Of a stretch of 64,000 nucleotides of DNA, positions 22,533 to 36,766 are shown in pieces (within the stretch, counting starts at the first letter, position 1; each line of letters opens with the position of its first letter). The notes beneath the pieces are model-generated. The model was given only the letters and a program-made list of their open reading frames with translations, was not told the origin of the DNA and searched no databases. The stretch is from the IMG/VR virus record IMGVR_UViG_3300008952_000024; one strand, given 5' to 3'. This DNA is from an uncultured virus (IMG/VR IMGVR_UViG_3300008952_000024) (lineage: Duplodnaviria; Heunggongvirae; Uroviricota; Caudoviricetes). Made by a program: the position numbers and the translations under genes.

Positions 22533-22535
22533 TCA

Positions 22536-22751: not shown

Positions 22752-22796
22752 TACATCCTCCTATACAGGTGCATAGTAACAGATAATGGCAACTAA

Positions 22797-23000
22797 TCAA
22801 ACTTCACAATTGTTATCTACATCCGCCACCCAATCGGCCATTCGTTCAACGACCGCCGTGGTGTTCCTGTAAGTTTTAATCTTAAATTCTCCGTCTACAA
22901 ACTCTACTTGTATCCAGTTCTCATTGTCGATAACCACATATACCTTCTCCACTTGGTCGATATTCTTTACATCAGTTTGAACCTTCATATTATTACCCAT
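22797..23000 (-). CDS. Hypothetical protein
   Basis: 67-aa ORF with GAGGAG RBS. Confidence 0.55.
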   Translation of the reverse strand: MGNNMKVQTDVKNIDQVEKVYVVIDNENWIQVEFVDGEFKIKTYRNTTAVVERMADWVADVDNNCEV

Positions 23001-23001
23001 A

Positions 23002-24273
23002 CTATTCTCCTCGTAAGTCCTGTAGTTGTTTTTTTAGTTGCTCTCTATTTTCTCCGTAATGGAGTTCTCGGTGGTGATTGGCACAAACGCAAACCATATT
23101 CTCCATCGTGTCTGGACCACCTTCCGCCATCATAATCAAATGGTGAACCTCTACATACGGTAGACCATCTGGCTTAATAAAAAGCTCTACCGCACAACCA
23201 TCGACCTCACACGCGTAACCAGCTCGCTTCTTAACCAAATCGACTAACTTATGGTTTCTCTCGTAACCACGCTCAACAACACGAGACTTTCTACGCGGCT
23301 CTAGGTTCTCCTCCAGTTTTGCTAATGCTTCAAGGTTGGCTAGAGTTTCGCGCCCCTCCTCTGTCAGAGCTATCCGCGTATCACCCTCTGGCTCTTGCGC
23401 AAAATTACGCATAATAAACTGATCAACGAGAAAGGCCCACCTCTCCAATGCATCTGGCGCATCAGCATCGAAGTCCACAGTTTCACCTGAAACAACCTGC
23501 GCACCATCAGCCCCATCGTACTCCACTCCAAGAGCAAGGGTGCCGGGTCCATGAAACTCTGGCGTAGCATAAACAGACACCCCAGAATACTCTGGGTTAA
23601 TAAGTTCAATTGTCAATATCTCTGGGTTGAGTGTTGGCACCCATCCCTGAACACCACCACTGGACAAAATCGCATCCGTTAATGTTGTAACTCCACTGAC
23701 TTGCTTACTAGCAAGCATAACCGGATCGCTATTAACAACATCCATCTGAATTTGGTGTTTCGGAGCGGGAAAAACACCCTCTGGCTCATCATCGTCTTTA
23801 TGCCACGACACGCCGGTAACATTACCCTCGTCATCCGTCATAACATTCACTTTGCCGTCTGGATGATTATTTCCAAAGTGCTCTGTCATAAAATCTATCA
23901 GTTCGTCTGGCTCATAACCACGATCGGATATATCCAAATATAAAGTCTTATCCTCATCATCTATTGCAATATTTTCCATTGGAATATCCAGATCACGCAG
24001 ATCTGGCTTTTCCTCTACCACGTCTGGCAAATGACCCCTTCTACGGGCACGACGTTTAGCAAGCAGCCTATTCCGTCGCTGCATTGCCTTATCTGCCCTA
24101 GAGTTCGGATGCTCCGCACCCATACCCGCCTCCTGCACATTAAAACCCTTACTGCCCCTCCTTTGAGCACGGTTACCGCCTCCACGCTCATTTGCTTGAC
24201 CAGCAGCACCCCTCTTCATTAAACCGCCCCCCTCGCTATCCCTCTTCCTACCTACAGCCCTTCGTTTTCCCAT
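23002..24273 (-). CDS. HNH endonuclease with long N-terminal extension
   Basis: C-terminal YERN...ACEVDGC...YVEVHHLIMMAEGGPDTMENMVCVCANHHRELHYG; Arg/Gly-rich N-terminus, acidic middle. Confidence 0.8.
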   Translation of the reverse strand: MGKRRAVGRKRDSEGGGLMKRGAAGQANERGGGNRAQRRGSKGFNVQEAGMGAEHPNSRADKAMQRRNRLLAKRRARRRGHLPDVVEEKPDLRDLDIPMENIAIDDEDKTLYLDISDRGYEPDELIDFMTEHFGNNHPDGKVNVMTDDEGNVTGVSWHKDDDEPEGVFPAPKHQIQMDVVNSDPVMLASKQVSGVTTLTDAILSSGGVQGWVPTLNPEILTIELINPEYSGVSVYATPEFHGPGTLALGVEYDGADGAQVVSGETVDFDADAPDALERWAFLVDQFIMRNFAQEPEGDTRIALTEEGRETLANLEALAKLEENLEPRRKSRVVERGYERNHKLVDLVKKRAGYACEVDGCAVELFIKPDGLPYVEVHHLIMMAEGGPDTMENMVCVCANHHRELHYGENREQLKKQLQDLRGE

Positions 24274-24506
24274 CAGTACACCTCATTCTCGTCTGGAAAC
24301 ACACGTTCCGGCTCATACGCACCCGGTCGTAACTTCACTGGCTCCAAACCCTTTGATACCCTGTGAACCTCATTCCATAACTTAAAACAACCACGACAGA
24401 CCGGCTCACGCTCTCCGTTCACCCTTAACGACGGAACCAGCTCTGGATTGAAGGAAATGGACCGCTCACACGACACACAAAACCCATGCATTATCATCCA
24501 ACTCAT
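24273..24506 (-). CDS. Small Cys-containing phage protein
   Basis: CVSC...CRGC motifs. Confidence 0.55.
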   Translation of the reverse strand: MSWMIMHGFCVSCERSISFNPELVPSLRVNGEREPVCRGCFKLWNEVHRVSKGLEPVKLRPGAYEPERVFPDENEVY

Positions 24507-25157
24507 TTAACGACCCCACTGCATAGCCATAGCTTTGGCAATACCCACATACGTCTCTGACCGTATCCTCCACCTATCTTCCGATGGACCCAACACATTC
24601 TGACCACTCAATGTCTGATTGTCCCATACACCACATTTTGGGATCTTTAGAACATTCGTTGGCTGCAACGGCGGCAAACGCTTTAACCACAAACCCGTTT
24701 TCTTGGAATGAGGATGACCGAACTCATACGGATGGATATACTGGTCTGGTGGCCTAATCGCTGTTGAAATACGTCCTACAGGATTCTCAATACATATTCG
24801 GCCAATAGGCGCGTTCATCAAATGACGAACAAACTTTAATGCCTCTTCCGTCTTATGGCTCCGACCAAAACGACGCTTATTCCAATGTAATCCACTACCA
24901 GACAAATAAGTGCAAGGCGGATGAGCTATCATCAAATCCCAACCCTTATTTAGTACAAATCGTACATCACACTTGAGATGAGGACCGCCAACCACGCTTG
25001 GAAGCACATCGCAAGACCAAGCATCATGGCCACGCCGCAGAAATTGATCTCGCACAATCCCGCTGGATTCACATGCAACCAATACCCTCACAACGACTCC
25101 AAAAAAGAAATTTGCGGGACGGCTCGCTTCAAACAGCTTACCTGACGACACCCGCAA
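24507..25157 (-). CDS. Phage DNA cytosine-5 methyltransferase-like protein
   Basis: VLVACESSG (motif I variant), DLMIAHPPC (catalytic PC), IENP, KKTGLWL, RSETYVGIAKAMAMQW. Confidence 0.8.
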   Translation of the reverse strand: MRVSSGKLFEASRPANFFFGVVVRVLVACESSGIVRDQFLRRGHDAWSCDVLPSVVGGPHLKCDVRFVLNKGWDLMIAHPPCTYLSGSGLHWNKRRFGRSHKTEEALKFVRHLMNAPIGRICIENPVGRISTAIRPPDQYIHPYEFGHPHSKKTGLWLKRLPPLQPTNVLKIPKCGVWDNQTLSGQNVLGPSEDRWRIRSETYVGIAKAMAMQWGR

Positions 25158-25664: not shown

Positions 25665-26486
25665 TCAGGAAACCGGACCTTTTGCAAGCCATGACTTTAT
25701 GCTTTGGGGATCTATCGCTAATCTTACCATATGGACCCCAACTTTCGACTCAATCCTACCGGTCCAAGTCTGGGTCACACGGTCCACCCAGTTCGGGCCG
25801 GGGTTCAACACGTCCCTCAATGGACCAATCTGACCCCAACCAGCCCCATTAATACTTCCCACAGCCTCTAACGTCAGAATCTTATCCGTCGCCGGATCAT
25901 AATCCAAAACTATCAAACTATGACCACCACTAGAGGTAAAATACTGCAACAAGTATGCACCCTCACCGGGAGCCGTAGTACCCACACCCCACTGGAGTAT
26001 TACCCTCGGACCCCAGTTCGGCACCACCGGAACAGAACCACTGTCACTTGTGGAAACCATCCACAACTTCCACTGCTCACTTGTAAACGATACACCCTCA
26101 AAAGCATACGCCAACAACCAAGAAGTAAACTGCACGCAATTCGTCCACTCATCACCAATATTACGCAAACTCATTCCCGGTGGATTACTCGGACACTGGG
26201 CATCGCTTAAACGATACTCCTGCGGCAACATCTGTGGAAACAAGTCAGCCACCACTTGGAAGTCTATCGGCAAACCTAAATCCACACCACCACTACGCAA
26301 TGCATCCCAAGTCTTCGAACCCACAACACCATCCGCCACTAAACCACTAGCAGACTGAAAAGACTTCACATTCGCTTCCGTTCCCGAACCAAATACACCA
26401 TCCACCGTCGTCCGATAACCACTCTCGGTCAACAACGTCTGGCACTCCTTCACCTCTATACCACTGTCACCCTTACGCAATACCAT
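25665..26486 (-). CDS. Endolysin: peptidoglycan-binding domain plus Cys/His peptidase-like domain
   Basis: MVLRKGDSGIEVKECQTLL...DGVFGSGTEANVKSFQSASGLVADGVVGSKTW (PG_binding_1); TNCVQF...GGHSLIV...LEA suggests a CHAP/NlpC-like triad; ATG 26486 after GAGGAG. Confidence 0.8.
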   Translation of the reverse strand: MVLRKGDSGIEVKECQTLLTESGYRTTVDGVFGSGTEANVKSFQSASGLVADGVVGSKTWDALRSGGVDLGLPIDFQVVADLFPQMLPQEYRLSDAQCPSNPPGMSLRNIGDEWTNCVQFTSWLLAYAFEGVSFTSEQWKLWMVSTSDSGSVPVVPNWGPRVILQWGVGTTAPGEGAYLLQYFTSSGGHSLIVLDYDPATDKILTLEAVGSINGAGWGQIGPLRDVLNPGPNWVDRVTQTWTGRIESKVGVHMVRLAIDPQSIKSWLAKGPVS

Positions 26487-26923
26487 TACCAACTCCTCGA
26501 CACTAGCAAACCACCCACCGAACCAATCACACATAAAAGTATATCCCACCAATCAAATGTACCACGGAACATAGATAGACTTTGGAGGACTTCAATACAC
26601 CCTACAAGGCATCCCGGCAGTAAAACCGACCCAAGGTATATCCAACCCCCCTCGGATCGCCACAAACGGCAAAAGAATCCCGTACAGGCATATACCCATA
26701 CTCCTAGAGGCAAACTATAAACGAACCACAAAGGAAATAGGCTCCTATACGGATTCGCCAACTCCCTAACCCAACTCAATACACCGTCAGGACGGTAGCA
26801 CCCCACCGCGCCCATTACTTCAAATATGAGCAAATGGTCTGGACGCCACAATAAATAGATAATCGACCCCAAACAAATTGGGATAACACAATTCCAAAGG
26901 AAAAATTTTCTATTTACAGGCAA
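26486..26923 (-). CDS. Multi-pass membrane protein
   Basis: About four hydrophobic segments; SLPLGVW and EVLQ...GTFDWWD motifs. Confidence 0.6.
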   Translation of the reverse strand: MPVNRKFFLWNCVIPICLGSIIYLLWRPDHLLIFEVMGAVGCYRPDGVLSWVRELANPYRSLFPLWFVYSLPLGVWVYACTGFFCRLWRSEGGWIYLGSVLLPGCLVGCIEVLQSLSMFRGTFDWWDILLCVIGSVGGLLVSRSW

Positions 26924-27002
26924 AACGTAGAAAGGAGGACAAAACCCCCCACGGCGTAGATGGTGACCAACACTTTAGAATCTAAATTAAACATGGAACC
27001 TC

Positions 27003-27302
27003 CTAAATAAATTTAGCTATCAGCCCGGTTACGGAAAGCACCAGACCTATATAGGCCAAACGCTTCGCACGGGTCGCGGTACTGTATGCGTCTCCCAAGT
27101 TATCCCGTTTGATTTTGTAATCAAAATGTTGGAGCGGGCTTAATTTGGGTATGGCTTCAAAGAAGTCGGGACAATCACGCTGTTCGTACTCATCTTGTCG
27201 CGCCAAACGGTGCTGATACCACAAACAGACCCCAGAATACTTATTTTCATGGTGTTCATCGGGGTATTTATTATATAGGCCACATCGACCACATCTAGCC
27301 AT
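27003..27302 (-). CDS. Cys-rich protein with C-terminal TM helix
   Basis: CGRC...C...C plus hydrophobic C-terminus. Confidence 0.55.
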   Translation of the reverse strand: MARCGRCGLYNKYPDEHHENKYSGVCLWYQHRLARQDEYEQRDCPDFFEAIPKLSPLQHFDYKIKRDNLGDAYSTATRAKRLAYIGLVLSVTGLIAKFI

Positions 27303-27303
27303 T

Positions 27304-27531
27304 CTATTGCCCCATACACGGTATCAAGCTCTCACCTGCGTCGGATACTATCACAACCGTATTGGGGAGTATACGGTCTACTACCCAACCATCTGCCAGC
27401 TCTAACCCTTCACTAAAGGCTCTACAATGCGGAATGTCACCAAATAAGAGGTAGGACTCCAAAGGGGAGTGGCTATGAGGGCTACAGTTTATGAGAATAG
27501 TCATCATGGTTAGGATTAGGAACATTTGCAT
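27304..27531 (-). CDS. Small putative exported/lipoprotein
   Basis: Hydrophobic N-terminus ending LINC. Confidence 0.4.
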   Translation of the reverse strand: MQMFLILTMMTILINCSPHSHSPLESYLLFGDIPHCRAFSEGLELADGWVVDRILPNTVVIVSDAGESLIPCMGQ

Positions 27532-27694
27532 TACTCGGAGGGTAGGGAGAGGCGGCTACATATATCAGCCAACAGCAACATCTTACAAGTAATGGGATGA
27601 CGCCAAATGTAAACACCCACCCTACTAAAACGTAAAAAGATACAACTAATGCTAACTCGAAAGATCCTATGTAGTCTGGGTTAGATGTGTACAA
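27482..27694 (-). CDS. Small membrane protein
   Basis: Hydrophobic 70-aa ORF. Confidence 0.3.
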   Translation of the reverse strand: MYTSNPDYIGSFELALVVSFYVLVGWVFTFGVIPLLVRCCCWLIYVAASPYPPSNANVPNPNHDDYSHKL

Positions 27695-28987
27695 ATTTTA
27701 CCGGGGAAAAGATTAAAAATACCTTGGTCCCCCCACGGGGGACTATGGGGGAAGAATAATTTTATATAAATAGATCTTAATACAAATCATATATCTCTTA
27801 ATATATCTTATTATATATCTATTATTCTCACAATGGGCATATCGACCTTTAAACCCCCATTATAAGAGGGGTAAATTATACAATTATCTCTAAAACAGGT
27901 TTAATGGATAAACTTATAAGGGGTATAGACTCACTAGGTCCAAAAATTTTAGAAAAAAAAATTCAAGACTCACTAGATGATAAAAAGTATGAAAAATCGG
28001 TCGGCAGGAGGTGTCCCTCAAATATCATATTCTTGGAATCATATTCTGTAGGGGGGAGAGGTGAGGTTCAACCTATGATATGAGGCATTACCTCATGTGG
28101 ATTCTAGGGTCATCATATCTATTGGCAATGGCAACTATCATACTCTCCTGGCCCATATCATAGGTTGTAAGGTCATTATCATAGGATAAACCCCTATAAA
28201 ATAGGCCAAAATCATAGGGCATAGGCGGTCCAAAGTGGGCATATACCCTCATTAATAGGCATATCACCAACATCATATTCATAGGCACAAAGGGATATTC
28301 CTACTACAACCATTCATATCCTTTGAGCGCTCATGGTGTTTCTAGGGAACGGCCAATATCATAGGACTCCCCTCCACTATGGTGTGGGTCTACCCCATAC
28401 AGGTTTCACCAATTCATATCCAATATCCAATAAACATAGGTCATAACTTCACTTTCATAGGCTAACTCAACCTTCCTATTCATAGGTACAACATACTCAA
28501 TCTGTCATTCCTGGCCTACAACCTACATTTATTCCATACACAGGATTTCAAACCATATCCTACCATCGGCAAAAGTTGGCTAGGTAATTACCATATCATC
28601 AAAAGGAAAATAATTTTCCTATTATCGGCTCCCATATCCATACTCTCAATTCTATAAAAGGGGGCTGGCATATGCGGCATTGTACCTACAAAATCGGCTA
28701 TTTGGCTCAAAATTTTAATATCTATCAAACGGCTATTAATACCCTTCCATCCATGTCAATACTCGGTTCAATCATATTCATACCATCAACCTCATATCTC
28801 ATATTCTCACCATACAATCCCCCACCTACCAACACCAATAAACATACCCTTTACAGGCTCACATTACCCCCTGGAGGGACTTCACCGGCAATCTGCGGGT
28901 CTGGGCAAGGGTAAACCCCTTGGACGGCTTCTGGGGGCATTCTAGGGGCTACAATCGGCATGGTTGGTTTGGTGGGTCAATATACAG

Positions 28988-29190
28988 GATAGGATCGGTC
29001 CATATCCATACTCGGATCGGATACCGGATCGGATCGGATCATAGGGCTAGGGTCCACGGAATAGGGGATACAGGCTATCCCTAGGATCATAGGGACCGGA
29101 TACAGGGAAACCCGGCACCATAGGATAGGGACCGGGTTCATAGGGCTAGGGATCGGATCATAGGGGATCGGATCGGATCATAGGGATCCC
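28988..29190 (+). repeat. GGATC / CATAGGG repeat array
   Basis: About 12 GGATC and several CATAGGG units, e.g. GGATCGGATCGGATCATAGGG. Confidence 0.85.
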
Positions 29191-29228
29191 CAAACCAAAA
29201 TACCCCTATCCGGTTAGGGATAGGGGTA
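29191..29228 (-). terminator. Rho-independent terminator
   Basis: 11-bp stem TACCCCTATCC / GGATAGGGGTA (29201-29228), followed on the minus strand by TTTTGGTTTG. Confidence 0.7.
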
Positions 29229-29360
29229 CTGGGGATCGGCTAGGCTATCGGGTTAATCGGTTACACAACTCCACACGGATAATAGGATCAGGAAGGTATA
29301 AAGGCTTGGCAGGGTAATCACAAGGTTAATCATAGGGTACTCCAATAGGGGCTAGGGGTG

Positions 29361-29386
29361 GCCCCTACCCGGTATTGGGTAGGGGC
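29361..29386 (-). terminator. Hairpin just downstream of the island gene
   Basis: Perfect 10-bp stem GCCCCTACCC-ggtatt-GGGTAGGGGC; no U-tract. Confidence 0.5.
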
Positions 29387-29402
29387 TAGGGGTTAGGGGT
29401 TA

Positions 29403-30047
29403 TTACTTGGCTAGGGATTCACGGGAAACCAATTCCCATACCAACAAACCATTGGGATCAATTGGGGTATCCTTATCGGTGGGATTGGTATTCTCTACGG
29501 TCCAAACCATATCCTTCCCGGTTCCAAATAATCCCTTGGTGGAAATGGAATACAGGGCTTTATGGCCACTATTGGCTCTCTTACCGGGTTCTTTGGTAGG
29601 GTTACCAAAATACTCTTTATATTTCACACAGGATACGGGAAACCCACGGGCCAACATATCGGCATGGGAAACCATAATACAGGTTTCACCGGTATCACCT
29701 ACCAATTCGGTCAATAGGGATACAACCCGGTCTAGGAATTTTGGCTTCGGGGTATTTTTCCGGATTTTGGCTACTTTGGCCTCAATTACCTTCATGGCAA
29801 AATCCCATACATTGGTGGGATCATCGGAAAACTTACCTATTCCCAACTCATTACAGGGACCGGCATACTTCATATCACCATAACGGGTAACCTTGGAATA
29901 CAGGGGATCGGCTACTAGGGCCGGTCCAAAATTATCTCGGGTCCAATCGGTGGATTCACATATGGCGGATACAATATCCTCAATTCGGAAACCGGTTAGG
30001 GCTAGGATTAGGGTAGGGGTTTCAACTTTTTTATTGGCTTTGGCCAT
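29403..30047 (-). CDS. Orphan 214-aa protein encoded entirely inside the GG island
   Basis: ATG 30047 (MAKANKKVETP) after an AAAGGAAG RBS; downstream hairpins; shares a motif with the 47494..48744 protein. Confidence 0.75.
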   Translation of the reverse strand: MAKANKKVETPTLILALTGFRIEDIVSAICESTDWTRDNFGPALVADPLYSKVTRYGDMKYAGPCNELGIGKFSDDPTNVWDFAMKVIEAKVAKIRKNTPKPKFLDRVVSLLTELVGDTGETCIMVSHADMLARGFPVSCVKYKEYFGNPTKEPGKRANSGHKALYSISTKGLFGTGKDMVWTVENTNPTDKDTPIDPNGLLVWELVSRESLAK

Positions 30048-30547
30048 TTCATCACTTCCTTTCAATTTGGGATCATTCCCAACCGGTCGGGACTCATTCC
30101 CTATCGGCACAACCATAATAACCGGATATGGAAATAATTCATAAACATAACTAACCGGAAAATCATACACCGGGAATAAACATAGGGAGAACCGGCAATA
30201 TCATCGGCTCAAAATAATTCTTTTTTTTTTATATTCCAAGGATCACCTCAAAATATCCAATTTTTAATCGGCCTATTCCATAGGATGTAACTACAATATC
30301 CTTTGGCACCACGGCATTTCAATCCAGGCTATTCGGTTATATGGTAGGAAGGAAGGGGATTTATCGGGATAGGGTCCACCAGGTATCCTATTAATTCGGG
30401 TATTGGATGGGGGCAAAATCGGATCGGCTCAAAATCGGGCCATTCATACCTCTATATATAGGGACAACAAAATCATACATACCCATTCTGGCCATATCAT
30501 AGGGTCTAACTACCATACCTCTGGAATGGATGGATATTCCATATCCT

Positions 30548-30770
30548 AGGATCTCGGATCATAGGGGATCGGATCAAAATCATAGGATCTCGGATCTTTC
30601 ATATTTTGGATTTCAAAATCATAGGATCTCGGATCTCAAAATATCAGGATCTCAAAATCATAGGATCGGATCAAAATCATAGGATCGGATCAAAATCATA
30701 GGATCTCGGATTTTCAATATCTCGGATCTCGGGATCATAGGATCGGCCAAAATCGGATCGGATTTCGGTC
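30548..30770 (+). repeat. Iteron-like array of CAAAATCATAGGATC with dense GGATC
   Basis: 15-mer at 30575, 30614, 30653, 30672, 30691 (spacing 39, 39, 19, 19); about 18 GATC sites. Confidence 0.9.
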
Positions 30771-31255
30771 GGAAAAATTTTGTCCCGGTCATGGAAAATA
30801 TTGTCCCAACCTCCAAAATTCCTAGGATTCACATTAAGGGTACTAGTGGCACGGTCAAGGGAAAATCCACCCTTAAAGGATATTCTAGGGCCACTAGTGA
30901 CGAGGCAACCGGCCCAAAACCGAGGCTGCATAGGAATGAAGTTGTCCTCTTTTTCTGGGAGAAAATAAATAAGTTTAGCGCTTAATAAAAACGTTTACGT
31001 TTTTATTATTCATATTCCTAAATCCAGGCCCCAGCTCTCTTTTGGAAAACTTTTGAAGTTCTCTGTCGGACAAAATCCGAAGCGCTTACAAATTCACCGA
31101 AGGCGAGCGCTGAAAATAAATGACGATGAAAGAAAAAATATGCCGTCACGGTGAAGCTGTGCCCCGTGGCAGAGCGCTCGAGCGCTAACCAAGAAAACGA
31201 ATCCAGAAAAAGAACCTCGATTTAAGTTGGCTAACCAAATTTGAGCGGCCAGCTT

Positions 31256-31350
31256 TTTGGCCAAGTTTTGAGCTGGCGTTTGAAGTTTGCGTTTGTCGAG
31301 TGCGTGTGAGTGTCGCCGCGTGCGCCGCGCGTCGTGTTTGGCCAAGTTTT
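31256..31350. other. Candidate genome terminus / cos-like site
   Basis: 14-bp direct repeat TTTGGCCAAGTTTT (31256 and 31337) brackets a GC-rich core GTCGCCGCGTGCGCCGCGCGTCG in non-coding DNA; terminase is GpA-like. Confidence 0.3.
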
Positions 31351-31741
31351 AAGTGGAGTTTGTATTAAATTAAATTAATAATACTCAATACTATATATAA
31401 TATATAATACATTATAACTACATTATAGTAAGTTTTGAAAGTCTCTCACTCACCCCCATTAAAGTTGACACTCAACTCTGCTCATACCCTTACTTAAAGT
31501 GTATAGGTTTTTTAATTTTAAGTAATGGCACCGACAAATCATTTTAATTTTCACCCTACCCCTAACCACCAACAACCAGTCAAAACCTCACCACGGGGCC
31601 GTTAGGCGGCCGATACGGTACAAGTACGGGCACCCCACTCCTCCTACCCCCTCCTACCCCCTACCCTACCCTACTGGGTACGCCTCCGACCTATATACAG
31701 AATTTGTTATGGTTTTTAGCTTGGAGCGTATTGGATATTGA

Positions 31742-31753
31742 AACTAGGGGGGT
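31742..31753. promoter_or_regulatory. Dispersed motif AACTAGGGGGGT, copy 1 of 4
   Basis: Exact 12-mer also at 32025, 38268 and 50159. Confidence 0.6.
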
Positions 31754-32024
31754 ATAAAAGACAGGGTGTTGAGGGGAAGGCGACCATAATCACATTATCC
31801 GTGTGTACAGCGCGGTTAAAGTGAACAACATGGGCATGGTTGTCTATCCCCCCAACACTGTGGCCATACCCCCGTATAAAGATCCTATCGGCACACCCAA
31901 CCTTCTATTTAACGACAAACATCACTGTTAAAGAAAGCTGGTGGTCCGAATATATAGGTATAGGTATACATATACTCATTCAGGATTTTTTTTGAAAATC
32001 AAACCCCCGAAGTTCGAAAAACGA

Positions 32025-32036
32025 AACTAGGGGGGT
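32025..32036. promoter_or_regulatory. Dispersed motif AACTAGGGGGGT, copy 2
   Basis: Just downstream of the last early-gene stop (32065). Confidence 0.6.
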
Positions 32037-32064
32037 TAAAATAGGTGGTTATTCGAGGTTTAGT

Positions 32065-32562
32065 TTAGTATGGGTGCTCTTCACGGAAGTAATACGGAAT
32101 ACCTACACGTTCCCCCATTACTTGTATAGTTACATCAGTCTCTACTAGAAGTCCGTTGCAGCAAAGGTCACCGAGGTAATCTTCTACGATTTCCTCTAGG
32201 GTTTCGTATCCCTCAACGGTATCTTCGTTTATCCCACAAAGAAACTCAACCGCATCGTCGCGGTCAGACACAAGATCAGGCTCCTCCCGCTTTAGCAGGA
32301 TTACTAACCCTTCTACGATTTGATCTATATTCGCCATGTATTGGTGGTGGTACTTATCGACTCGGTAACCACCATTTACGACGGAGCCACCGCTATGGGC
32401 GTTAATGGTTTCCAACGCCGCACGAAATACTATTGTCCGTGCCAACAAATATGGGAGTCCAGAACCTCCCGGTTCAGCATCGACCTTCACACTATCTTTC
32501 CAGAGATTTTCCTGGGCATAGTTGAGGGTTCTATCTTGTAACGTTTGTACGGGTCTAGACAT
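32065..32562 (-). CDS. Hypothetical early protein
   Basis: N-terminus MSRPVQTLQDRTL is duplicated in the upstream gene. Confidence 0.65.
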   Translation of the reverse strand: MSRPVQTLQDRTLNYAQENLWKDSVKVDAEPGGSGLPYLLARTIVFRAALETINAHSGGSVVNGGYRVDKYHHQYMANIDQIVEGLVILLKREEPDLVSDRDDAVEFLCGINEDTVEGYETLEEIVEDYLGDLCCNGLLVETDVTIQVMGERVGIPYYFREEHPY

Positions 32563-32989
32563 ATTGGTTTCCCCACCACTGACGAATCATCTTTGCATCT
32601 TGAGGAGTTACTGTTTCTCCTGAAATGCTGGAAGAGTTCCCTTCGTGCAGAAAATAGTCTGGGATTATTGGTCCCGATGTTAGTTGGTGTTTTATGCAGA
32701 AGCGACACAGGGTAATGTAGTCCACTGTCCCGTAAGCGTCGTACTGCCGCCTTATCTCAAGTGCATCCGGCAACCCCGTAAGTTGTCGGATACCTTCAAT
32801 GTCATCGACCGCCGCATTGGTTACCCTTTTCGGGTGGAGGTAATGCGATCTATAAGGCTCATTTAGTTCCAACGCTTTCTGTACGTTGGAAAGAATAAAG
32901 TACTCCATAGGGTCTATCCTGTACTTTATCTCCTGAACGTACTCTTCAACGAGGGTTCTATCTTGTAACGTTTGTACTGCTCTAGACAT
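32555..32989 (-). CDS. Hypothetical early protein
   Basis: Start MSRAVQTLQDRTL at 32989 after GGGAGG. Confidence 0.65.
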   Translation of the reverse strand: MSRAVQTLQDRTLVEEYVQEIKYRIDPMEYFILSNVQKALELNEPYRSHYLHPKRVTNAAVDDIEGIRQLTGLPDALEIRRQYDAYGTVDYITLCRFCIKHQLTSGPIIPDYFLHEGNSSSISGETVTPQDAKMIRQWWGNQYV

Positions 32990-32990
32990 A

Positions 32991-33689
32991 TCATCCTCCC
33001 ACAAATGAGTGGCTACCAACCACAAAAGCGTTCATGAATCCCTTATCGTTACGCCAATCTTTATGGACTTGATTAATAGCCCATTGTAAGTCATGCATCC
33101 CACCCCATGACTGGGTTACCGTCATCAGAAACAGTAGGCCATTGGCCCGTTGTCGGCTGACGCGGCCGTCAAGTGGGAGCATCGTCATCTTCTTCAAAAA
33201 GTAGTGGTGTAGGTTTTCGCAGTTATTTTTCTGGATATAGCCGTCTGGACCCACCTCGAAAGTGAATCCATCCAAGGGATTCAGTCGGCGACAGGACGGG
33301 ACATGCTCTCCGTGGAAGGCCATATCATAGACTTCCCAATTTCGTAGTACTTCTGGTTGTAGCGACATAGTAGTCGCAATATAAACTTCACGAAGTAGCC
33401 GTGGTCGTAAATCGGGTAGCATAAAAGTCTTTATACAATCCGCCTCATAACCATATCCGTTACGTCGGATCTCCCCAACTAACCCCATAAGAACCTGCCA
33501 TTCCGCATCTGCTGGTTCTAGGTCGTTAGAAATTACCCGGTATAGCGCAGACACAAGGTGTACCGTTTTATACTCTGGGTAGTAATGCATTACCTTATCG
33601 GCGCCCGACAAGGTAAAGTGGTCGGAGTTCATAACTAACTCCAAACTGTTTGCGGCCATTACGAACCGTGTGGTTTCCATATCCATCAT
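32991..33689 (-). CDS. Hypothetical protein
   Basis: 232 aa, AAGGAAGG RBS. Confidence 0.65.
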   Translation of the reverse strand: MMDMETTRFVMAANSLELVMNSDHFTLSGADKVMHYYPEYKTVHLVSALYRVISNDLEPADAEWQVLMGLVGEIRRNGYGYEADCIKTFMLPDLRPRLLREVYIATTMSLQPEVLRNWEVYDMAFHGEHVPSCRRLNPLDGFTFEVGPDGYIQKNNCENLHHYFLKKMTMLPLDGRVSRQRANGLLFLMTVTQSWGGMHDLQWAINQVHKDWRNDKGFMNAFVVGSHSFVGG

Positions 33690-33757
33690 ATTCCTTCCTT
33701 TAAGTGCCTAAATGCACATTATTCGACACCCATCTCTGGGTGCCGAATCAAGTGGAC

Positions 33758-33985
33758 TTACGCCTTCTGCTGACTCCAGAATCGGTTGTTGTGGAATACC
33801 ACACACACACCGAGGAGCCGTTCCCAAAGCCCGAACAGCATCACCATATGATGTGGCTGCACGGGGTGTCCCGCTTCCGCCAGCTCCCTATAGATACGGG
33901 ATTCATCCCCATCTAGATAGGCTCCTGTACGTTGGTGACTAAACAGGCGGGTAACCGCCGCATCAATTTCTTGTTGTGTCATCAT
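33758..33985 (-). CDS. Hypothetical protein
   Basis: Likely start MMTQQEID after GGGAG. Confidence 0.45.
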   Translation of the reverse strand: MMTQQEIDAAVTRLFSHQRTGAYLDGDESRIYRELAEAGHPVQPHHMVMLFGLWERLLGVCVVFHNNRFWSQQKA

Positions 33986-34304
33986 TTCTCCCGTCACAGT
34001 CATAGTTCCATAATGGAGCTTTGTAATAAGCAAGGGTGTCATTACCCCATGCACACGAGGCCGCAGCAGCGGCACACTCGAGTCGAATCTCATTTTCCTC
34101 ATCGCCGTCAGGAAACTTATTGATCCGACGATAATAATCATATCCAGCATTCTCGCAAAGGTTCACGAGGTTCTTATACTGGGATTCGCGGCCCATCTGG
34201 TCGATGGCATCCGGCATTTTGTATATGATAAAGGCCACGCCAATTACCAACACAACCCACGATTTGCTTTGGAAAAACAATCCGATTCGGTCTATACGCC
34301 TCAT
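33963..34304 (-). CDS. Membrane-anchored protein
   Basis: N-terminal TM WVVLVIGVAFII; ATGA coupling. Confidence 0.55.
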   Translation of the reverse strand: MRRIDRIGLFFQSKSWVVLVIGVAFIIYKMPDAIDQMGRESQYKNLVNLCENAGYDYYRRINKFPDGDEENEIRLECAAAAASCAWGNDTLAYYKAPLWNYDCDGRNDDTTRN

Positions 34305-34678
34305 GACACCCCCAAATCATTTTGGTATGCCATCCAAACGTGTTCAGTAAGGAAACCTTCTGTGTAGAAGTGGCTCACCAGAGGAGCGGTGAAGGCCAGA
34401 TCCTCTATGTTTTTGGCATGATTCGCCAAACTTCCTGGATATATCCGAAGCACATCTCCAGATATTGTTGGGTCACTAGAAAGTTCAAGTCGGGCTTCAA
34501 CTGAAGCAAGACCCTTTGGGGTTAGCCATGCTGGTTCAACAACCAGAAGCCACTGGTGGCCATCGCAGTCATTGGCACGGAGTAAACAAACCTCTTGGAT
34601 TAGTCTAGTCATTTCATTCCTCACAGTTACATTCTTCATTTCATTCCTCACAGTTACGTTACTCATTTTCTTCCTCAC
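34301..34678 (-). CDS. Hypothetical protein with repeated N-terminus
   Basis: MSNVTVRNEMKNVTVRNEMT arises from a 27-bp tandem repeat. Confidence 0.6.
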   Translation of the reverse strand: MRKKMSNVTVRNEMKNVTVRNEMTRLIQEVCLLRANDCDGHQWLLVVEPAWLTPKGLASVEARLELSSDPTISGDVLRIYPGSLANHAKNIEDLAFTAPLVSHFYTEGFLTEHVWMAYQNDLGVS

Positions 34679-34683
34679 AGTTA
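34609..34683 (-). repeat. Three 27-bp tandem units, each with RBS plus ATG
   Basis: TAACTGTGAGGAA(G/T)...AAATGA units at 34609, 34636 and 34663. Confidence 0.85.
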
Positions 34684-35111
34684 GGGCATGGTCGATATGT
34701 AGTTTCGACCATATGGGTTTCGCACAGGGTCAACCCCGCACGATCCGCAATCTCAAACAACACTAATTGGCACAACGCCAGATCATTCTCGGTTTCCATC
34801 TGCTTTAGCCACTTCTCATCAGATAAGAGCTGGTCCTTTACTTCCGACAACTCCGTATCGAACTTATCTGCAATATAATATTCCAAATAATGGAAGTAAC
34901 CTTTTTCGATTATATCGTTCCGTACCGACTCTGGCCGATCAATGAACTCTATCGAAGGGTCTATTTCATAATCAATATCGTAATGTTTTGGATAGGCTTC
35001 GACCGATTCGAAACACGGCCAAAAAATATCCCACTGCTGTTTATGGGATAATTTCTTACCCCGTTCAACAATGGAAAGCGCTCGTTTCATAACTTCCTCT
35101 TTAGACATCAT
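34659..35111 (-). CDS. Hypothetical protein with C-terminal Cys motif
   Basis: 150 aa, CETH...CPNC. Confidence 0.6.
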   Translation of the reverse strand: MMSKEEVMKRALSIVERGKKLSHKQQWDIFWPCFESVEAYPKHYDIDYEIDPSIEFIDRPESVRNDIIEKGYFHYLEYYIADKFDTELSEVKDQLLSDEKWLKQMETENDLALCQLVLFEIADRAGLTLCETHMVETTYRPCPNCEEENE

Positions 35112-35656
35112 GCCTCCAATGAAAGTAGGATTTGCAACAACTCACGACAATATTCTTTATCAATGTGCCATCGATCCATATCCACTTCATTTTGGATAAA
35201 ATCAGAATGACTATTTCTGATCCGCATAAGCTCCGCCCCCACCACATGGGCGTAGGGATTAACCATTTCAGCTTCTGCAAGACTGATAGGACTCTTTAGA
35301 TCCGGTGTGATTTTATCATAACCGTGGTGGTTCCACGCGCTGATGAAGCTCTCCAGCATGGCGATGCCTTCGGTATCGAACCCCATATCGCCAAGGTTAT
35401 CATGCATCGCCCAAAATGATTCTTCGCAGAACTCCTCTAGGGACTTACTGCTCGGTCCTGGGCACGTTTCGTCCTCACACTGGCCGCCGCGAATATCATC
35501 GGCATCCGTTAAGCCGACCTTTAGGTCAGCAGAGCATACGATACATTTATGCCGATAGGATTCCATATAACCATCGAGGACGTATGCCTTGGCCGCGACA
35601 GGTAAATCCTCATAAATACGTGATATTACTTCATCTATTCCAAATAGGTTACTCAT
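35108..35656 (-). CDS. Hypothetical protein with CxxC motif
   Basis: 182 aa, AAGGGAAG RBS. Confidence 0.6.
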   Translation of the reverse strand: MSNLFGIDEVISRIYEDLPVAAKAYVLDGYMESYRHKCIVCSADLKVGLTDADDIRGGQCEDETCPGPSSKSLEEFCEESFWAMHDNLGDMGFDTEGIAMLESFISAWNHHGYDKITPDLKSPISLAEAEMVNPYAHVVGAELMRIRNSHSDFIQNEVDMDRWHIDKEYCRELLQILLSLEA

Positions 35657-35731
35657 GTTTTCTTCCCTTATCCCGCGTTAATTGCGGATAATAACCCGTA
35701 ACCTTATTCGGTTACGAGTTACTAACCATAA

Positions 35732-35998
35732 TTAAATCGATCCTATGGCATCCATTGCAAGTTCCTGACTTATAGGCGGCAAGCTCCAGAGGAGCGCTGC
35801 AAATTTGAATTGGCTTTCAACCTGCGCCGTCCGTAGGTTGGAATAAAATTCCTCTTGGGCCTCTTGGTCGTGGTTAAACCAATATTCATCGGATGGATCT
35901 CGGTCATCATACCAAGCATCCAAGTCTACGAAATTCACAAATCCTTCCAGAACCTTTGGCTCTGGTGGGAGTTCCATTAAAAAACTACTACGCATCAC
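35732..35998 (-). CDS. Hypothetical protein
   Basis: 88 aa, GGAGG RBS. Confidence 0.55.
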   Translation of the reverse strand: MMRSSFLMELPPEPKVLEGFVNFVDLDAWYDDRDPSDEYWFNHDQEAQEEFYSNLRTAQVESQFKFAALLWSLPPISQELAMDAIGSI

Positions 35999-36134
35999 TC
36001 ACCTCCGATTTATTCACCCAACGGCGAATCATCCCCTCATAGGGATGGTAATATTCAATACGGATTCGCTCCGTACCAACTTCCAAAATATGCCCTCGGC
36101 GGTTGCCGAACATTACTGCATCACCACGCTTCAT
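35988..36134 (-). CDS. Small beta-rich (SH3-like) protein
   Basis: MKRGDAVMFGNRRGHILEVG; ATGA overlap at 36131-36134. Confidence 0.5.
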   Translation of the reverse strand: MKRGDAVMFGNRRGHILEVGTERIRIEYYHPYEGMIRRWVNKSEVSDA

Positions 36135-36766
36135 CGCTGGCTCCCAATGATCCGCACTGCGGTTTCCATATCTGTTGGGGTGGTTCCATGTGGAACCAAC
36201 ACCATTCGGGAGTCCCGATGGCGGTCGGTATTCCAAGTCACCGGTTCGAGGAGCCAAAAGGCACCATGAATCATCTCGGTTTGGTAGTTGTCATCATCAA
36301 CAATCACTGAAAATTCTGTGGTTTTCAGTTCATCTTGGATCTCTGGGAGACATATATGGGCCAATTCACATACGGCCCAATTAATCGTTTCCTCATAGGA
36401 ATTGAAGAGGTAATAATGGCCGTAGGCATTATCATACTCATCCAAATTACTATAATACTCATAAACGTCTGCCATCAGTTCCGCTACGAACCCTTGGATT
36501 GCCAGAGCTTCGGTTGGCGGGCAGTTGCCGTTCATCACGGCTACGAGGGTACGGGACACCAAGTCCCATTCGGCCTTCTCAAGATCATCTCCCTCCACCT
36601 TGTGGAGCAGGATGGAGGCGAGAACTCCTGGCCCCCACAGTTCTCGGACGGTATGGCCGTGGCTGCTTTCGGCTAAATATTCTTCGAGGATAACCCCCGA
36701 AATTTCAACACCTTTCTTCGTGGCTCGGCCACCAAAAGAGTACATACGGTTCTCAAAATGTTTCAT
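36131..36766 (-). CDS. Hypothetical protein
   Basis: Start MKHFENR downstream of the sigma70 promoter at 36832-36860. Confidence 0.6.
   Translation of the reverse strand: MKHFENRMYSFGGRATKKGVEISGVILEEYLAESSHGHTVRELWGPGVLASILLHKVEGDDLEKAEWDLVSRTLVAVMNGNCPPTEALAIQGFVAELMADVYEYYSNLDEYDNAYGHYYLFNSYEETINWAVCELAHICLPEIQDELKTTEFSVIVDDDNYQTEMIHGAFWLLEPVTWNTDRHRDSRMVLVPHGTTPTDMETAVRIIGSQR

What the first reader, a model, noticed from the sequence alone, without database searches (positions are those of the whole stretch)
29403..30047. Orphan gene written with a restricted codon vocabulary
Seen: a 214-aa ORF with RBS and downstream hairpins whose coding strand has no isolated C; the protein contains no Gln. 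Keeping a protein under that constraint implies strong selection on the nucleic acid itself. Inference: a stand-alone, possibly first-expressed gene (anti-defence, host takeover, or the factor that reads or enforces the rule).
Basis: partly seen in the sequence, partly recalled or inferred. Interest (0 to 1): 0.7.

Follow-up and report, generated by a model that had tools for sequence, protein, structure and literature searches.

The report
Phage cassette written without lone G
A marine phage keeps a 2.7-kb control region, including one complete protein gene, written so that on one DNA strand every G touches another G; a sister strain with a very different version of the gene obeys the same rule, so something still unidentified must act on isolated G (or C).

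Summary
On the + strand, no G stands alone between 28,896 and 30,188 (0 of 134 G-runs; about 78% are lone elsewhere in the window). Across 28,098-30,781 only 15 of 245 G-runs are lone. The + strand's C-runs are normal there, so the rule holds on one strand only.

The minus-strand ORF 29,403-30,047 is a real, stand-alone gene with an RBS and two terminator hairpins. It encodes a 214-aa protein and has four family members in 5.8 billion protein clusters. The AlphaFold model has pLDDT 85, and its C-terminal domain looks like a winged helix. All Ala are GCC, all Thr are ACC, and 11 of 12 Ser are TCC. Recoding the protein with the phage's own codon usage would give 68 +/- 5.5 lone C.

A metagenome variant about 89% identical in the flanks carries a 28%-identical allele at the same start codon. 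It keeps the rule: 3 lone G of 100 G-runs (226 G), against about 23 expected from its 83 substitutions. Selection therefore acts on the locus, not on the protein. The absence of Gln is incidental.

The region holds 26 same-sense CATAGG iterons. The phage encodes a 7-deazaguanine pathway (DpdA plus Que genes).

The factor that reads the rule is unknown. My best reading is a self-contained, fast-evolving early or control cassette that escapes a strand-specific activity on lone G/C.

The parts
28098..30781 (+). Zone in which the + strand carries G almost only in runs of two or more. The right edge is sharp at 30,782. The left part, 28,098-28,895, is leaky.
   Evidence: 15 lone of 245 G-runs, against 2,980 of 3,761 and 3,493 of 4,579 in the rest of the window. 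C-runs on the + strand of the core are normal: 142 lone of 204.
28896..30188 (+). Core of the zone, with no lone G at all.
   Evidence: 0 lone of 134 G-runs: 79 of length 2, 40 of length 3, 14 of length 4, 1 of length 5; 339 G in total. GAG is also absent here.
29403..30047 (-). Gene for P0001, 214 aa, written with no lone C on the coding strand.
   Evidence: Translation. Codon table: GCC 15 of 15 Ala, ACC 18 of 18 Thr, TCC 11 of 12 Ser. Homologues P0003, P0004 and P0008. AlphaFold model with pLDDT 85.4.
30052..30060 (-). Ribosome-binding site AGGAAGTGA. It is conserved in the variant L039, although the coding sequence diverges right after the ATG.
   Evidence: Upstream sequence. L039 sequence and alignment.
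30293..30322 (-). Sigma-70-like promoter candidate (TTGAAA, 16-18 nt spacer, GATATT/TATTGT). It lies in the block best conserved between the window and L039.
   Evidence: Consensus scan, where the number of sites did not exceed shuffles. Conservation. Not shown to be functional.
29361..29386 (-). First hairpin after the stop codon: a 10-bp G+C-rich stem.
   Evidence: Fold. Coordinates.
29199..29230 (-). Terminator-like hairpin: a 13-bp stem followed by UUUUGGUUUGG.
28926..29244 (+). Iteron array downstream of the gene (GGATC and CATAGG units, about 20-nt steps).
   Evidence: Repeat families D1, D3 and D6. CATAGG positions.
30421..30768 (+). Iteron array upstream of the gene, including three exact copies of a 24-mer, GGATCGGATCAAAATCATAGGATC.
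   Evidence: Repeat families D2, D4 and D7. CATAGG positions.
28146..28490 (+). Third set of same-sense ATCATAGG units, in the leaky left part of the zone.
   Evidence: Repeat families D5 and D8. CATAGG positions.
30189..30189 (+). Lone G that is tolerated and conserved. It lies in CATAGGGAGAAC, just 3' of an iteron core.
   Evidence: Present in the window and in L039 at position 489.
30287..30287 (+). Second conserved lone G. It lies in CATAGGATGTAAC, at or near the predicted transcription start of the promoter candidate.
   Evidence: Present in the window and in L039 at position 587.
29377..29399 (+). Canonical G-quadruplex-type motif GGGTAGGGGCTAGGGGTTAGGGG on the G-run strand, directly behind the stop codon.
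   Evidence: Pattern search. Formation of the structure was not tested.

Best explanation
What is shown:
- The ORF is a real, self-contained gene with an RBS, a promoter-like site and two terminator hairpins.
- It encodes a 214-aa, two-domain protein from a very rare family. The C-terminal domain is winged-helix-like.
- It sits in the middle of a 2.7-kb, otherwise non-coding module packed with 26 same-sense CATAGG/GGATC iterons.
- The module lies between the lysis genes and a block of ORFan genes in a marine siphophage (contig on record about 84 kb) that also encodes a 7-deazaguanine DNA-modification pathway.
- The whole module, not just the gene, is written so that the + strand carries G only in runs. 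That strand is the template strand of the gene.
- The rule is kept by purifying selection. It holds through 11% divergence of the flanks and through replacement of the gene by a 28%-identical allele.

What I infer:
- The module is an autonomous, fast-evolving early or control cassette. It must keep working in the presence of an activity that acts on one strand only, or on the transcript, at a G whose neighbours are not G. In the mRNA that target is a lone C.
- Removing every target from that strand makes the cassette immune, whatever happens to the rest of the genome. This is the logic of restriction-site-free, first-entering phage DNA, but applied to a three-letter class (H-G-H) on one strand.
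- Because the clean strand is the gene's template strand, the simplest working model is this: nicks, adducts or base exchanges at lone G would stop RNA polymerase on the template, whereas hits on the other strand do not.
- An RNA-level version is equally open: an RNase or RNA-modifying toxin that hits lone C.
- The agent itself is unidentified.
For: Size and strand-specificity of the rule:
- Core 0 of 134 G-runs lone, zone 15 of 245, rest of the window 76-79% lone. C-runs on the same strand are normal.

Cost to the gene:
- It uses GCC, ACC and TCC, which make up 15%, 18% and 11% of Ala, Thr and Ser codons elsewhere in the phage.
- 0 lone C observed against 67.8 +/- 5.5 expected.

Selection:
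- In the 751 aligned zone bases, L039 differs by 83 substitutions and 77 indel columns.
- 26 substitutions gain or lose a G, yet only one makes a lone G.
- 20,000 simulations with the same substitution spectrum give 22.9 +/- 2.7 lone G, minimum 12.
- Inserted sequence in the variant also obeys the rule.

A property of the locus:
- The variant's allele is P0008: 28% identity over 144 aa, E 2e-12. It starts at the same conserved RBS and ATG.
- It has 0 lone G in 32 G-runs over the 345 nt that could be seen.
- All 16 of 16 Gln/His residues in the four family members follow a residue that has an NNC codon, as the rule demands. This includes 11 in stretches whose DNA I could not see. That is weak support; by my arithmetic the chance is about 0.05.

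Self-contained cassette:
- RBS, hairpins with z = -4.0, and a promoter-like site.

Fast evolution in a variable region:
- Window genes between 26.5 and 37.5 kb have no counterpart in the relatives G002 and G003.

Polarity:
- The edge is sharp on the gene's upstream side (30,782, the same place in L039). The rule decays gradually downstream.

Leads, not support:
- Earlier notes of this scan describe other phage cassettes with banned short words.
Against: - No agent that tells lone G from clustered G is known to me, and none turned up in my searches.
- Early or first-entering status is not shown. Genome ends are unknown and no RNA data were available.
- The rule runs 735 nt upstream of the ATG. 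It also stays perfect for about 300 nt past the second terminator hairpin, which a pure mRNA explanation does not predict.
- All other genes of the phage carry lone G on the same template strand. The model therefore needs this cassette to act at a time or place where the rest of the genome does not matter.
- The two complete relatives examined have neither the gene nor any such zone (0 of 2; G003 carries the same modification genes). The feature is therefore not general to the lineage.
- The earlier notes of this scan report the ban on the coding strand. Here it is on the template strand.
Confidence: 0.4

Rival explanations
1. Footprint of the phage's own guanine-exchange system. The phage's DpdA works with two adjacent ParB-like genes, which I read as possible DpdB counterparts by analogy to the bacterial system. 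It would replace G by a 7-deazaguanine only, or never, when the G has non-G neighbours. The cassette would then keep one strand entirely free of that modification, or entirely subject to it. That would let the proteins or polymerases that must read this strand do so: G N7 is the main major-groove contact, and it is also needed for Hoogsteen pairing.
For: - The window encodes FolE, QueD, QueE, QueC and a DpdA/TGT-like protein, plus two ParB-like genes next to it.
- Published phage DpdAs are context-specific: GA and GGC in CAjan (PMC7544227, title and start of abstract in the search listing); GA in iggy (PMC10484667, start of abstract).
- The bacterial DpdAB system modifies a site inside CAGCTG, where both G's are lone within or at the edge of the site (PMC10164549, passage).
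- The zone is full of repeats that look like protein-binding sites.
Against: - No known DpdA motif corresponds to 'lone G'. GGA, which contains the published GA motif, occurs 55 times on the clean strand of the core.
- The other strand of the zone carries lone G at normal frequency, so the duplex would still be modified.
- Relative G003 has the same Que/DpdA cluster but no such zone.
- Putative operator palindromes (AGCGCT) elsewhere contain lone G.
- 7-Deazaguanines are not known to block polymerases (recalled, not checked).
Confidence: 0.2
2. Replication origin or copy-control module of the iteron type. P0001 would be the initiator or regulator that binds the flanking iterons, as in the rep-plus-iterons layouts of P1, F and R6K or the ori inside lambda O (recalled). 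The one-strand G-run pattern would serve the origin itself. Possible roles are R-loop or G-quadruplex formation, or reading of one unwound strand.
For: - 26 of the window's 42 CATAGG copies lie in the zone. Only 1 copy lies in the opposite sense there. They sit at steps of about 20 nt on both sides of the gene.
- GATC is 3.6-fold enriched.
- The best structural matches of residues 102-210 are the winged-helix domains of the iteron-binding initiators Pi (2nra_C, Z 5.7, 78 residues aligned, rmsd 3.7) and RepE (2z9o_A, Z 5.4).
- There is a canonical G-quadruplex motif right after the stop codon.
- I recognised no DNA polymerase, helicase or primase among the family hits of the 60 ORFs of at least 99 aa scanned in the 64-kb window.
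Against: - Z below 8 may reflect only a common fold arrangement (note). Foldseek found nothing at E <= 0.001 in PDB or BFVD.
- Pfam Rep families do not match.
- The iterons are nearly identical in the window and in L039. Yet the predicted recognition helix differs almost completely between P0001 and P0008. This argues against a cognate protein-iteron pair.
- G-clusters, R-loops and quadruplexes need G-runs, but they do not explain a total ban on lone G.
- About 20 kb of the genome lies outside the window and may hold replication genes.
Confidence: 0.12
3. The protein itself is the agent. It would be a nuclease or modifying enzyme that attacks lone C in RNA (or lone G/C in DNA) for host takeover, and its own gene is written to be immune. 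This resembles the artificial ACA-less genes used with MazF (recalled).
For: Every allele whose DNA could be seen obeys the rule. The protein-level signature holds in all four family members (16 of 16 Gln/His), so the rule travels with the gene family.
Against: - The 16 invariant positions of the family include no His or Asp. By my reading they form no recognisable catalytic motif.
- There is no match to any nuclease or toxin family in Pfam, PHROGs, NCBIfam or PADLOC.
- The fold reads as a helical domain plus a winged helix.
- All other phage genes would be targets.
- More than 2 kb of non-coding DNA also obeys the rule.
Confidence: 0.07
4. A mutational rather than selective origin. Either a locus-targeted mutator removes lone C/G, or constant gene conversion among the repeats copies sequences that happen to lack lone G.
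For: - Several differences between the window and L039 are multi-base or repeat-unit changes: a 22-nt insertion, a 19-nt deletion, and GG to AA changes. These fit copying among iterons.
- The gene is hypervariable.
Against: - A removing mutator should deplete G. Instead the clean strand is G-enriched: 33.7% in the non-coding part downstream of the gene and 22.6% in the CDS, against 17-18% in the rest of the window.
- The gene is not a repeat, and it keeps a folded, conserved protein while using rare codons. That requires selection.
- No reverse transcriptase or deaminase appeared among the family hits of the 60 ORFs scanned.
Confidence: 0.05

Closest known systems
Site-free, first-entering phage DNA: the first-step-transfer (pre-early) region of phage T5, and early-injected regions that decide sensitivity to Type I restriction
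   Same: A short, self-contained stretch with its own genes lies between late and early modules. Its sequence vocabulary is restricted, apparently so that it can act before the rest of the genome is safe. The T5 region is also rich in repeats. Sources: start of the abstracts of bioRxiv 10.1101/866236 and PMC12455610 in the listing. That T5 first-step DNA lacks certain restriction sites is recalled, not checked.
   Different: In those cases specific 4-8-bp sites are avoided on both strands. Here a whole class of nine trinucleotides (H-G-H) is banned on one strand only, strongly enough to dictate codons. Whether this zone enters first is unknown.
Motif-specific 7-deazaguanine DNA modification by phage DpdA (CAjan: GA and GGC; iggy: GA) and by bacterial DpdA/DpdB
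   Same: It is a guanine-directed, context-dependent enzyme system, and it is encoded in this very genome. Sources: PMC7544227 and PMC10484667 (search listing); PMC10164549 (passages).
   Different: No published motif distinguishes lone from clustered G. Modification there is not known to be strand-restricted or excluded from a locus.
Iteron-controlled replicons (Pi of R6K, RepE of F, RepA of P1; lambda O with ori inside the gene)
   Same: A small DNA-binding-type protein gene is embedded in arrays of same-sense repeats about 20 bp apart, with GATC clusters. There is a weak winged-helix resemblance.
   Different: There is no sequence membership. Only one domain matches, at Z 5.4-5.7. Alleles differ in the putative recognition helix while the iterons stay the same. 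Those replicons have no one-strand base rule (recalled).
[quoted passage not shown]
   Same: Escape works by deleting a 2-3-letter target from the sequence that must survive. DarT1 shows that strand-specific (single-strand) guanine-directed defence enzymes exist, and that it does not doubly modify a GG (PMC11543638, passages).
   Different: DarT1 still modifies one G of a GG and has no defined motif. The other examples are recalled, not checked. None reads 'lone G' or 'lone C'.
Helicase-associated (HA) domain, PF03457
   Same: The conserved stretch GFPVSCVKYKEYFGNP of P0001 matches repeats of an HA-domain protein: P0005, E 4.6e-4. P0005 is HA x8 by Pfam.
   Different: P0001, P0003 and P0004 do not match the Pfam model, even at E <= 1. 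The resemblance covers about 34 residues.

Membership tests
Iteron-binding replication initiators (Rep_3 / RepE / Pi type) | Sequence match to the family model | tested here: not met
   Pfam-A scan of the 255-aa ORF found 0 families at E <= 1. PHROGs and NCBIfam also found 0.
Iteron-binding replication initiators (Rep_3 / RepE / Pi type) | Two winged-helix domains with the initiator fold | tested here: inconclusive
   Only residues 102-210 align, to 2nra_C (Z 5.7) and 2z9o_A (Z 5.4). The N-terminal domain matches other helical domains at Z about 4. Foldseek found nothing at E <= 0.001.
Iteron-binding replication initiators (Rep_3 / RepE / Pi type) | Arrays of same-sense iterons next to the gene | tested here: met
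   26 CATAGG cores in one orientation on both sides of the gene, at steps of about 20 nt.
Iteron-binding replication initiators (Rep_3 / RepE / Pi type) | The protein binds its iterons and starts replication | not testable with these tools
   No DNA-protein prediction or assay was available. The allele comparison argues against a cognate pair.
Helicase-associated domain (PF03457) | Match to the Pfam model above its cut-off | tested here: not met
   No Pfam hit for P0001, P0003 or P0004 at E <= 1. There is only a phmmer hit to an HA-repeat protein, E 4.6e-4.
First-step-transfer / pre-early region of T5-type phages | Lies at the genome end that enters first (terminal repeat) and is expressed first | not testable with these tools
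   Genome ends are unknown. The relatives' contigs are classed linear, with no end repeats found. Contig depths from the laid runs cannot rank parts. No RNA run was listed.
First-step-transfer / pre-early region of T5-type phages | Restricted sequence vocabulary relative to the rest of the genome | tested here: met
   The lone-G ban is confined to 28,098-30,781.
DpdA-dependent 7-deazaguanine modification | DpdA and the preQ0 pathway genes are present in the genome | tested here: met
   PHROG matches for FolE, QueD, QueE, QueC and TGT/DpdA-like, plus two ParB-like genes at 56.2-61.1 kb. tblastn hits to phage genes annotated as 'DpdA-like'.
DpdA-dependent 7-deazaguanine modification | The target context of the enzyme corresponds to the banned word (G with non-G neighbours) | not testable with these tools
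   This needs modification mapping. The published motifs GA and GGC do not correspond (listing).
CsrB/Rsm-type GGA-repeat sponge RNA (considered for the + strand) | Match to an Rfam family | tested here: not met
   Rfam scan of 26,500-32,500 on both strands found 0 matches at E <= 1.

The most novel reading that the evidence does not exclude
Infected cells contain an as yet unknown enzyme activity that tells an isolated guanine (or, in RNA, an isolated cytosine) from one that has a like neighbour, on a single strand. It could be host immunity or a phage takeover tool. Phages would answer it with 'vocabulary-restricted' cassettes, in which genes, leaders and flanks are rewritten to contain no target. 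This 2.7-kb module and its tiny, hypervariable protein family would be one such cassette, and the protein could be the antidote expressed from it. Together with the other restricted-word cassettes noted in this scan, it would define a general and undescribed layer of phage-host conflict that can be read directly from sequence.
Probability: 0.35. Interest if true: 0.88.

Novelty: new variant of a known kind. Interest (0 to 1): 0.77.

Why it matters
A complete protein gene, plus 2 kb of flanking DNA, rewritten to avoid nine trinucleotides on one strand is a very strong signal of selection on the nucleic acid itself. It holds at the cost of rare codons, and it survives an allele swap. No known enzyme explains it.

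It may be a new kind of nucleic-acid-targeting immunity or takeover enzyme. Or it may be a new specificity class of the 7-deazaguanine system.

The rule can be computed from raw sequence. It could therefore be used to find such cassettes, and the genes they protect, across viromes. The four-member protein family would then be a prime candidate for a new anti-defence or control function.

Tried and rejected
**Family and fold searches that gave nothing usable**
- Pfam, PHROGs, NCBIfam and PADLOC on P0001, P0003 and P0004.
- PDB sequence profile: best E 0.11.
- Foldseek against PDB and BFVD: 0 hits at E <= 0.001.
- ESM Atlas: no usable hit.

**Looking for DNA of the homologues**
- IMG/VR, JGI metagenome contigs and GTDB genomes, searched with P0001 or alignment A1, returned only the phage's own contig or nothing.
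- INPHARED phages, by blastn and tblastn: no match.
- Iteron and leader patterns in IMG/VR found only the phage's own contig.
- The P0008 fragment in IMG/VR found nothing.
- Codon use in P0003, P0004 and the 3' half of P0008 could therefore not be read.

**Relatives**
- G002, G003, G004, G005 and G006 have no homologue of the gene (0 of 5).
- G002-G004 have no lone-base desert for any base.
- Loci L006-L024 also have none, but most do not reach the equivalent region.

**RNA and expression**
- No RNA holder was listed, so nothing can be said about expression.

**Laid contigs**
- X5 and X6 contigs at 80% likeness or more do not cover 29,116-30,095. A part without cover is no evidence, so I could not place the left border of the swapped segment.
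- Depth gives no sign of a terminal repeat, but contig depth cannot be used for that.

**Other negative results**
- Rfam: nothing in 26.5-32.5 kb.
- RNA folds of both strands of the iteron arrays are more stable than shuffles on both strands: z = -4.7 and -2.6 for the upstream array, and -3.3 for the + strand of the downstream array. This does not tell the strands apart.
- A general dinucleotide-desert scan of the window and relatives found nothing comparable.
- The window's own genome is not held.

**Ideas considered and dropped**
- Sequencing or assembly artefact. The ORF is intact with homologues, and the same rule appears in a divergent contig and in contigs of runs from three studies.
- tRNA or codon-level explanation. 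The rule crosses codon borders and covers non-coding DNA.
- Cytosine-deaminase footprint. The strand is G-enriched, not depleted.
- Avoidance of palindromic restriction sites. GATC, CCGG, GGCC and CTAG are enriched.
Full report
**1. What the window is**

Almost all long ORFs lie on the minus strand, and no tRNA gene was found. PHROG matches on 60 ORFs show a tailed-phage layout:
- tape-measure protein, major head protein, portal, and large terminase (18,699-20,342);
- several DNA methyltransferases, an HNH protein, and an endolysin (25,668-26,552);
- a block of ORFans;
- a Mom-like gene (40,384-41,040);
- a 7-deazaguanine cluster at 56.2-61.1 kb: QueD, two ParB-like genes, a TGT/DpdA-like gene, QueC, GTP cyclohydrolase and QueE.

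The terminase is at most 26% identical to those of cultured phages. The stretch occurs in marine and seawater metagenomes. Contigs of four runs from three studies were laid on it. The protein is on record on contigs of 84.1 and 84.2 kb.

**2. The observation**

- It has an AGGAAGTGA ribosome-binding site.
- Two hairpins lie behind the stop. The second is a 13-bp stem with a U tract. The fold has z = -4.0.
- Its coding strand has 0 lone C among 60 C-runs. All 15 Ala are GCC, all 18 Thr are ACC, and 11 of 12 Ser are TCC.
- Elsewhere in the phage these codons make up 15%, 18% and 11% of their sets.
- Rewriting the protein with the phage's own usage gives 67.8 +/- 5.5 lone C, minimum 49 in 5,000 trials.
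- Every codon that starts with a single C (Leu CTN, Arg CGN, His CAT) follows a codon ending in C. Every N[not C]C codon is followed by a C. The rule therefore crosses codon borders and is not a tRNA matter.

**3. The rule belongs to the locus, not the gene**

On the + strand the longest gap between lone G's in the window runs from 28,895 to 30,189. That is 1,293 bases holding 339 G in 134 runs, none single. Counts of lone G among G-runs:

| Region | Lone G of G-runs |
|---|---|
| Whole zone 28,098-30,781 | 15 of 245 |
| Left part 28,098-28,895 | 13 of 57 |
| Core 28,896-30,188 | 0 of 134 |
| Right part 30,189-30,781 | 2 of 54 |
| Rest of window | 2,980 of 3,761 and 3,493 of 4,579 |

- The binomial probability is about 1e-87 for the core. 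2,000 shuffles of the core never gave fewer than 151 lone G.
- The same strand's C-runs are ordinary: 142 lone of 204. The rule is therefore strictly one-stranded, and the clean strand is the template strand of the gene.
- All flanking contexts of the G-runs occur. The nine H-G-H trinucleotides are absent, and so is GAG.
- The clean strand is not G-poor: 33.7% G downstream of the gene and 22.6% in the CDS, against 17-18% elsewhere.
- The right edge is sharp at 30,782. The left edge is gradual.

**4. What else is in the zone**

Apart from the gene it is non-coding and repetitive.
- 26 of the window's 42 CATAGG copies lie in the zone. Only one copy there has the opposite sense. They usually appear as ATCATAGG at steps of about 20 nt, on both sides of the gene.
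- GGATC units accompany them. Three exact 24-mers lie upstream of the gene.
- GATC is 3.6 times denser than elsewhere.
- Rfam finds nothing.
- A canonical G-quadruplex-type motif sits directly behind the stop, on the G-run strand.

**5. Selection**

A metagenome contig, L039 (9,687 bp), is a variant of the phage covering window 30,032-38,298 at 88-92% identity.
- In the 751 aligned bases of the zone it differs by 83 substitutions and 77 indel columns.
- 26 substitutions create or remove a G, often in pairs (TAA to GGG, GG to AA). Only one makes a lone G.
- Placing 83 substitutions of the same spectrum at random gives 22.9 +/- 2.7 lone G, never fewer than 12 in 20,000 trials. The variant has 3.
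- Two of these are the same two exceptions as in the window (30,189 and 30,287). Both lie just 3' of an iteron core, in the best conserved block.
- The zone ends at the same place in the variant.
- The same variant is seen in contigs of two runs from other studies. Its 22-nt insertion also obeys the rule.

**6. The allele swap**

Left of the conserved ribosome-binding site and ATG, L039 stops resembling the window. It encodes a different protein.
- The full-length form is P0008, also 214 aa.
- It is 28% identical to P0001 over 144 residues, E 2e-12. That is less than P0003 (43%) and P0004 (about 40%).
- The 345 nt of this allele that can be seen contain 32 G-runs on the + strand, none lone, while C-runs are ordinary.
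- P0008 has five Gln, so the absence of Gln from P0001 is incidental.
- One protein-level consequence of the rule can be checked without DNA: Gln and His must follow a residue that has an NNC codon. This holds for 16 of 16 such residues in the four family members, 11 of them in sequence whose DNA I could not see. By my arithmetic the chance is about 0.05, so this is weak support.

**7. The protein**

- Only four family members exist among 5.8 billion clusters and 1.8 billion representatives. No library family matches.
- The AlphaFold model, built from a three-sequence alignment, has mean pLDDT 85.4 and pTM 0.56. It shows a helical N-domain and an alpha1-beta1-alpha2-alpha3-beta2-beta3 C-domain, which is the winged-helix order.
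- Foldseek finds nothing at E <= 0.001.
- The exhaustive aligner's three best chains (Z >= 5) all align to residues 102-210: Pi initiator (Z 5.7), RepE (Z 5.4) and Stn1 (Z 5.1). Further winged-helix DNA binders follow lower down. Such Z values can reflect only a common arrangement.
- The most conserved stretch weakly resembles helicase-associated (HA) repeats, E 4.6e-4.
- The family's 16 invariant positions hold no His or Asp.
- The putative recognition helix differs almost completely between P0001 and P0008, while the iterons are the same in both strains. I therefore do not claim that the protein binds these iterons.

**8. Relatives**

- Two complete relatives were examined: G002 (terminase 72% identical) and G003 (61%, with the full Que/DpdA cluster). 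Three fragments were also searched. None has the gene (0 of 5).
- G002, G003 and the fragment G004 were scanned for lone-base deserts and have none, for any base.
- Window genes between 26.5 and 37.5 kb have no counterpart in them, so the zone lies in the variable part of the genome.

**9. How it most likely works**

Shown:
- a self-contained gene inside a repeat-rich module;
- a one-strand ban on lone G that costs rare codons;
- purifying selection on the ban;
- persistence of the ban through an allele swap.

Inferred:
- The module must function in the presence of an activity that hits G with non-G neighbours on one strand, or lone C in the transcript. It has been cleared of targets.
- Because the clean strand is the template strand of the only gene, damage, nicks or base exchange at lone G would block transcription there and nowhere else in the module.
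- The sharp upstream edge and gradual downstream decay follow the gene's direction.

Against a purely RNA-level reading:
- The ban runs 735 nt upstream of the ATG.
- It stays perfect for about 300 nt beyond the second terminator hairpin.

I rank the readings as follows:

| Reading | Confidence |
|---|---|
| Escape of an early/control cassette from an unidentified host or phage activity | 0.40 |
| A context rule of the phage's own DpdA system | 0.20 |
| An iteron origin whose function needs the pattern | 0.12 |
| The protein as the agent | 0.07 |
| A mutational origin | 0.05 |

**10. What is known**

- Published DpdA motifs are GA and GGC (PMC7544227 and PMC10484667, seen as the listing and start of the abstracts).
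- Bacterial DpdAB modifies a site in CAGCTG (PMC10164549, passages).
- DarT1 ADP-ribosylates guanine in single-stranded DNA without a defined motif. It does not modify both G's of a GG (PMC11543638, passages).
- Early-entering phage DNA with restricted sites is known: bioRxiv 10.1101/866236 and PMC12455610, start of the abstracts.
- I found no paper on a lone-G or lone-C rule. Two searches were run: 'isolated guanine' with 'bacteriophage' gave 1 unrelated paper. A six-term search on strand-specific dinucleotide avoidance in phage early genes gave 2 unrelated papers.
- These two searches are narrow, so absence from print is not established. I opened no supplements.
- Earlier notes of this scan describe phage cassettes without lone G on the coding strand, and cassettes without GG/CC or CA/TG. 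They are unchecked leads. Here the banned strand is the opposite one relative to the gene.

**11. Verdict**

The finding is real, highly non-random, conserved and unexplained. The gene is a new, tiny family of probable winged-helix proteins. The remarkable object is the 2.7-kb one-strand vocabulary rule around it.

Noticed in passing
window 56,215-61,062: Complete 7-deazaguanine DNA-modification cluster: QueD, two adjacent ParB-like genes (which I read as possible DpdB counterparts), a TGT/DpdA-like gene, QueC, GTP cyclohydrolase I and QueE. Relative G003 has the same set. G002 keeps only the ParB-like pair.
   Followed up: partly
window 20,638-25,157 and 40,384-41,040: Three further DNA methyltransferase-type genes and a Mom-family gene (Pfam PF25680, E 3e-29). 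The phage therefore appears to invest in modifying several bases.
   Followed up: no
window 30,960-31,360: Just right of the zone's sharp edge lies a G+C-rich non-coding stretch. It holds five AGCGCT palindromes (30,977-31,181) and a run of alternating GT/GC, followed by an A+T-rich stretch with the two best promoter-like sites of the region (31,411-31,449, minus strand). A sixth AGCGCT sits inside the zone at 28,326 and accounts for a cluster of the zone's exceptions.
   Followed up: partly
window 49,255-49,491: A T/G-rich intergenic stretch almost free of C, with (TTTTG/TTG)n repeats. It lies between the minus-strand genes and the long + strand ORF at 49,548-49,997.
   Followed up: no
G002 (L028) 75,520-75,712 of the contig: The 76-kb relative has an array of about 28 heptamers TTAATCN (N = A, C or G), flanked by GATC-containing motifs, about 0.5 kb from the contig end.
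   Followed up: no
G003 (L033, L029) 85,140-85,772 and 1-300 of the contig: The 86-kb relative's contig ends in about 900 nt of strongly G+T-rich repeats of the type GGTCGTGNTGG. The first 80 bases of the contig are a poly-G run, possibly a sequencing artefact. Lone G is common here, so it is not the same rule.
   Followed up: no
L004 / L009 1-420: A relative whose endolysin is 69% identical has a TTGGAGG / TTGGACG repeat array upstream of the endolysin, right at its contig end. That is the position equivalent to the zone.
   Followed up: no
window 28,896-30,188: GAG is absent from the G-run strand of the core. By my estimate from the counts, about 7 would be expected from the number of G-runs followed by A. 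GCG occurs once. GGAGG-type Shine-Dalgarno words therefore never occur on that strand.
   Followed up: partly
window 27,950-27,985 and 31,268-31,500: In the laid runs, short A+T-rich pieces here have 5- to 30-fold higher summed contig depth and loose ends on both sides. They seem to be shared with other, more abundant sequences in the same samples.
   Followed up: no
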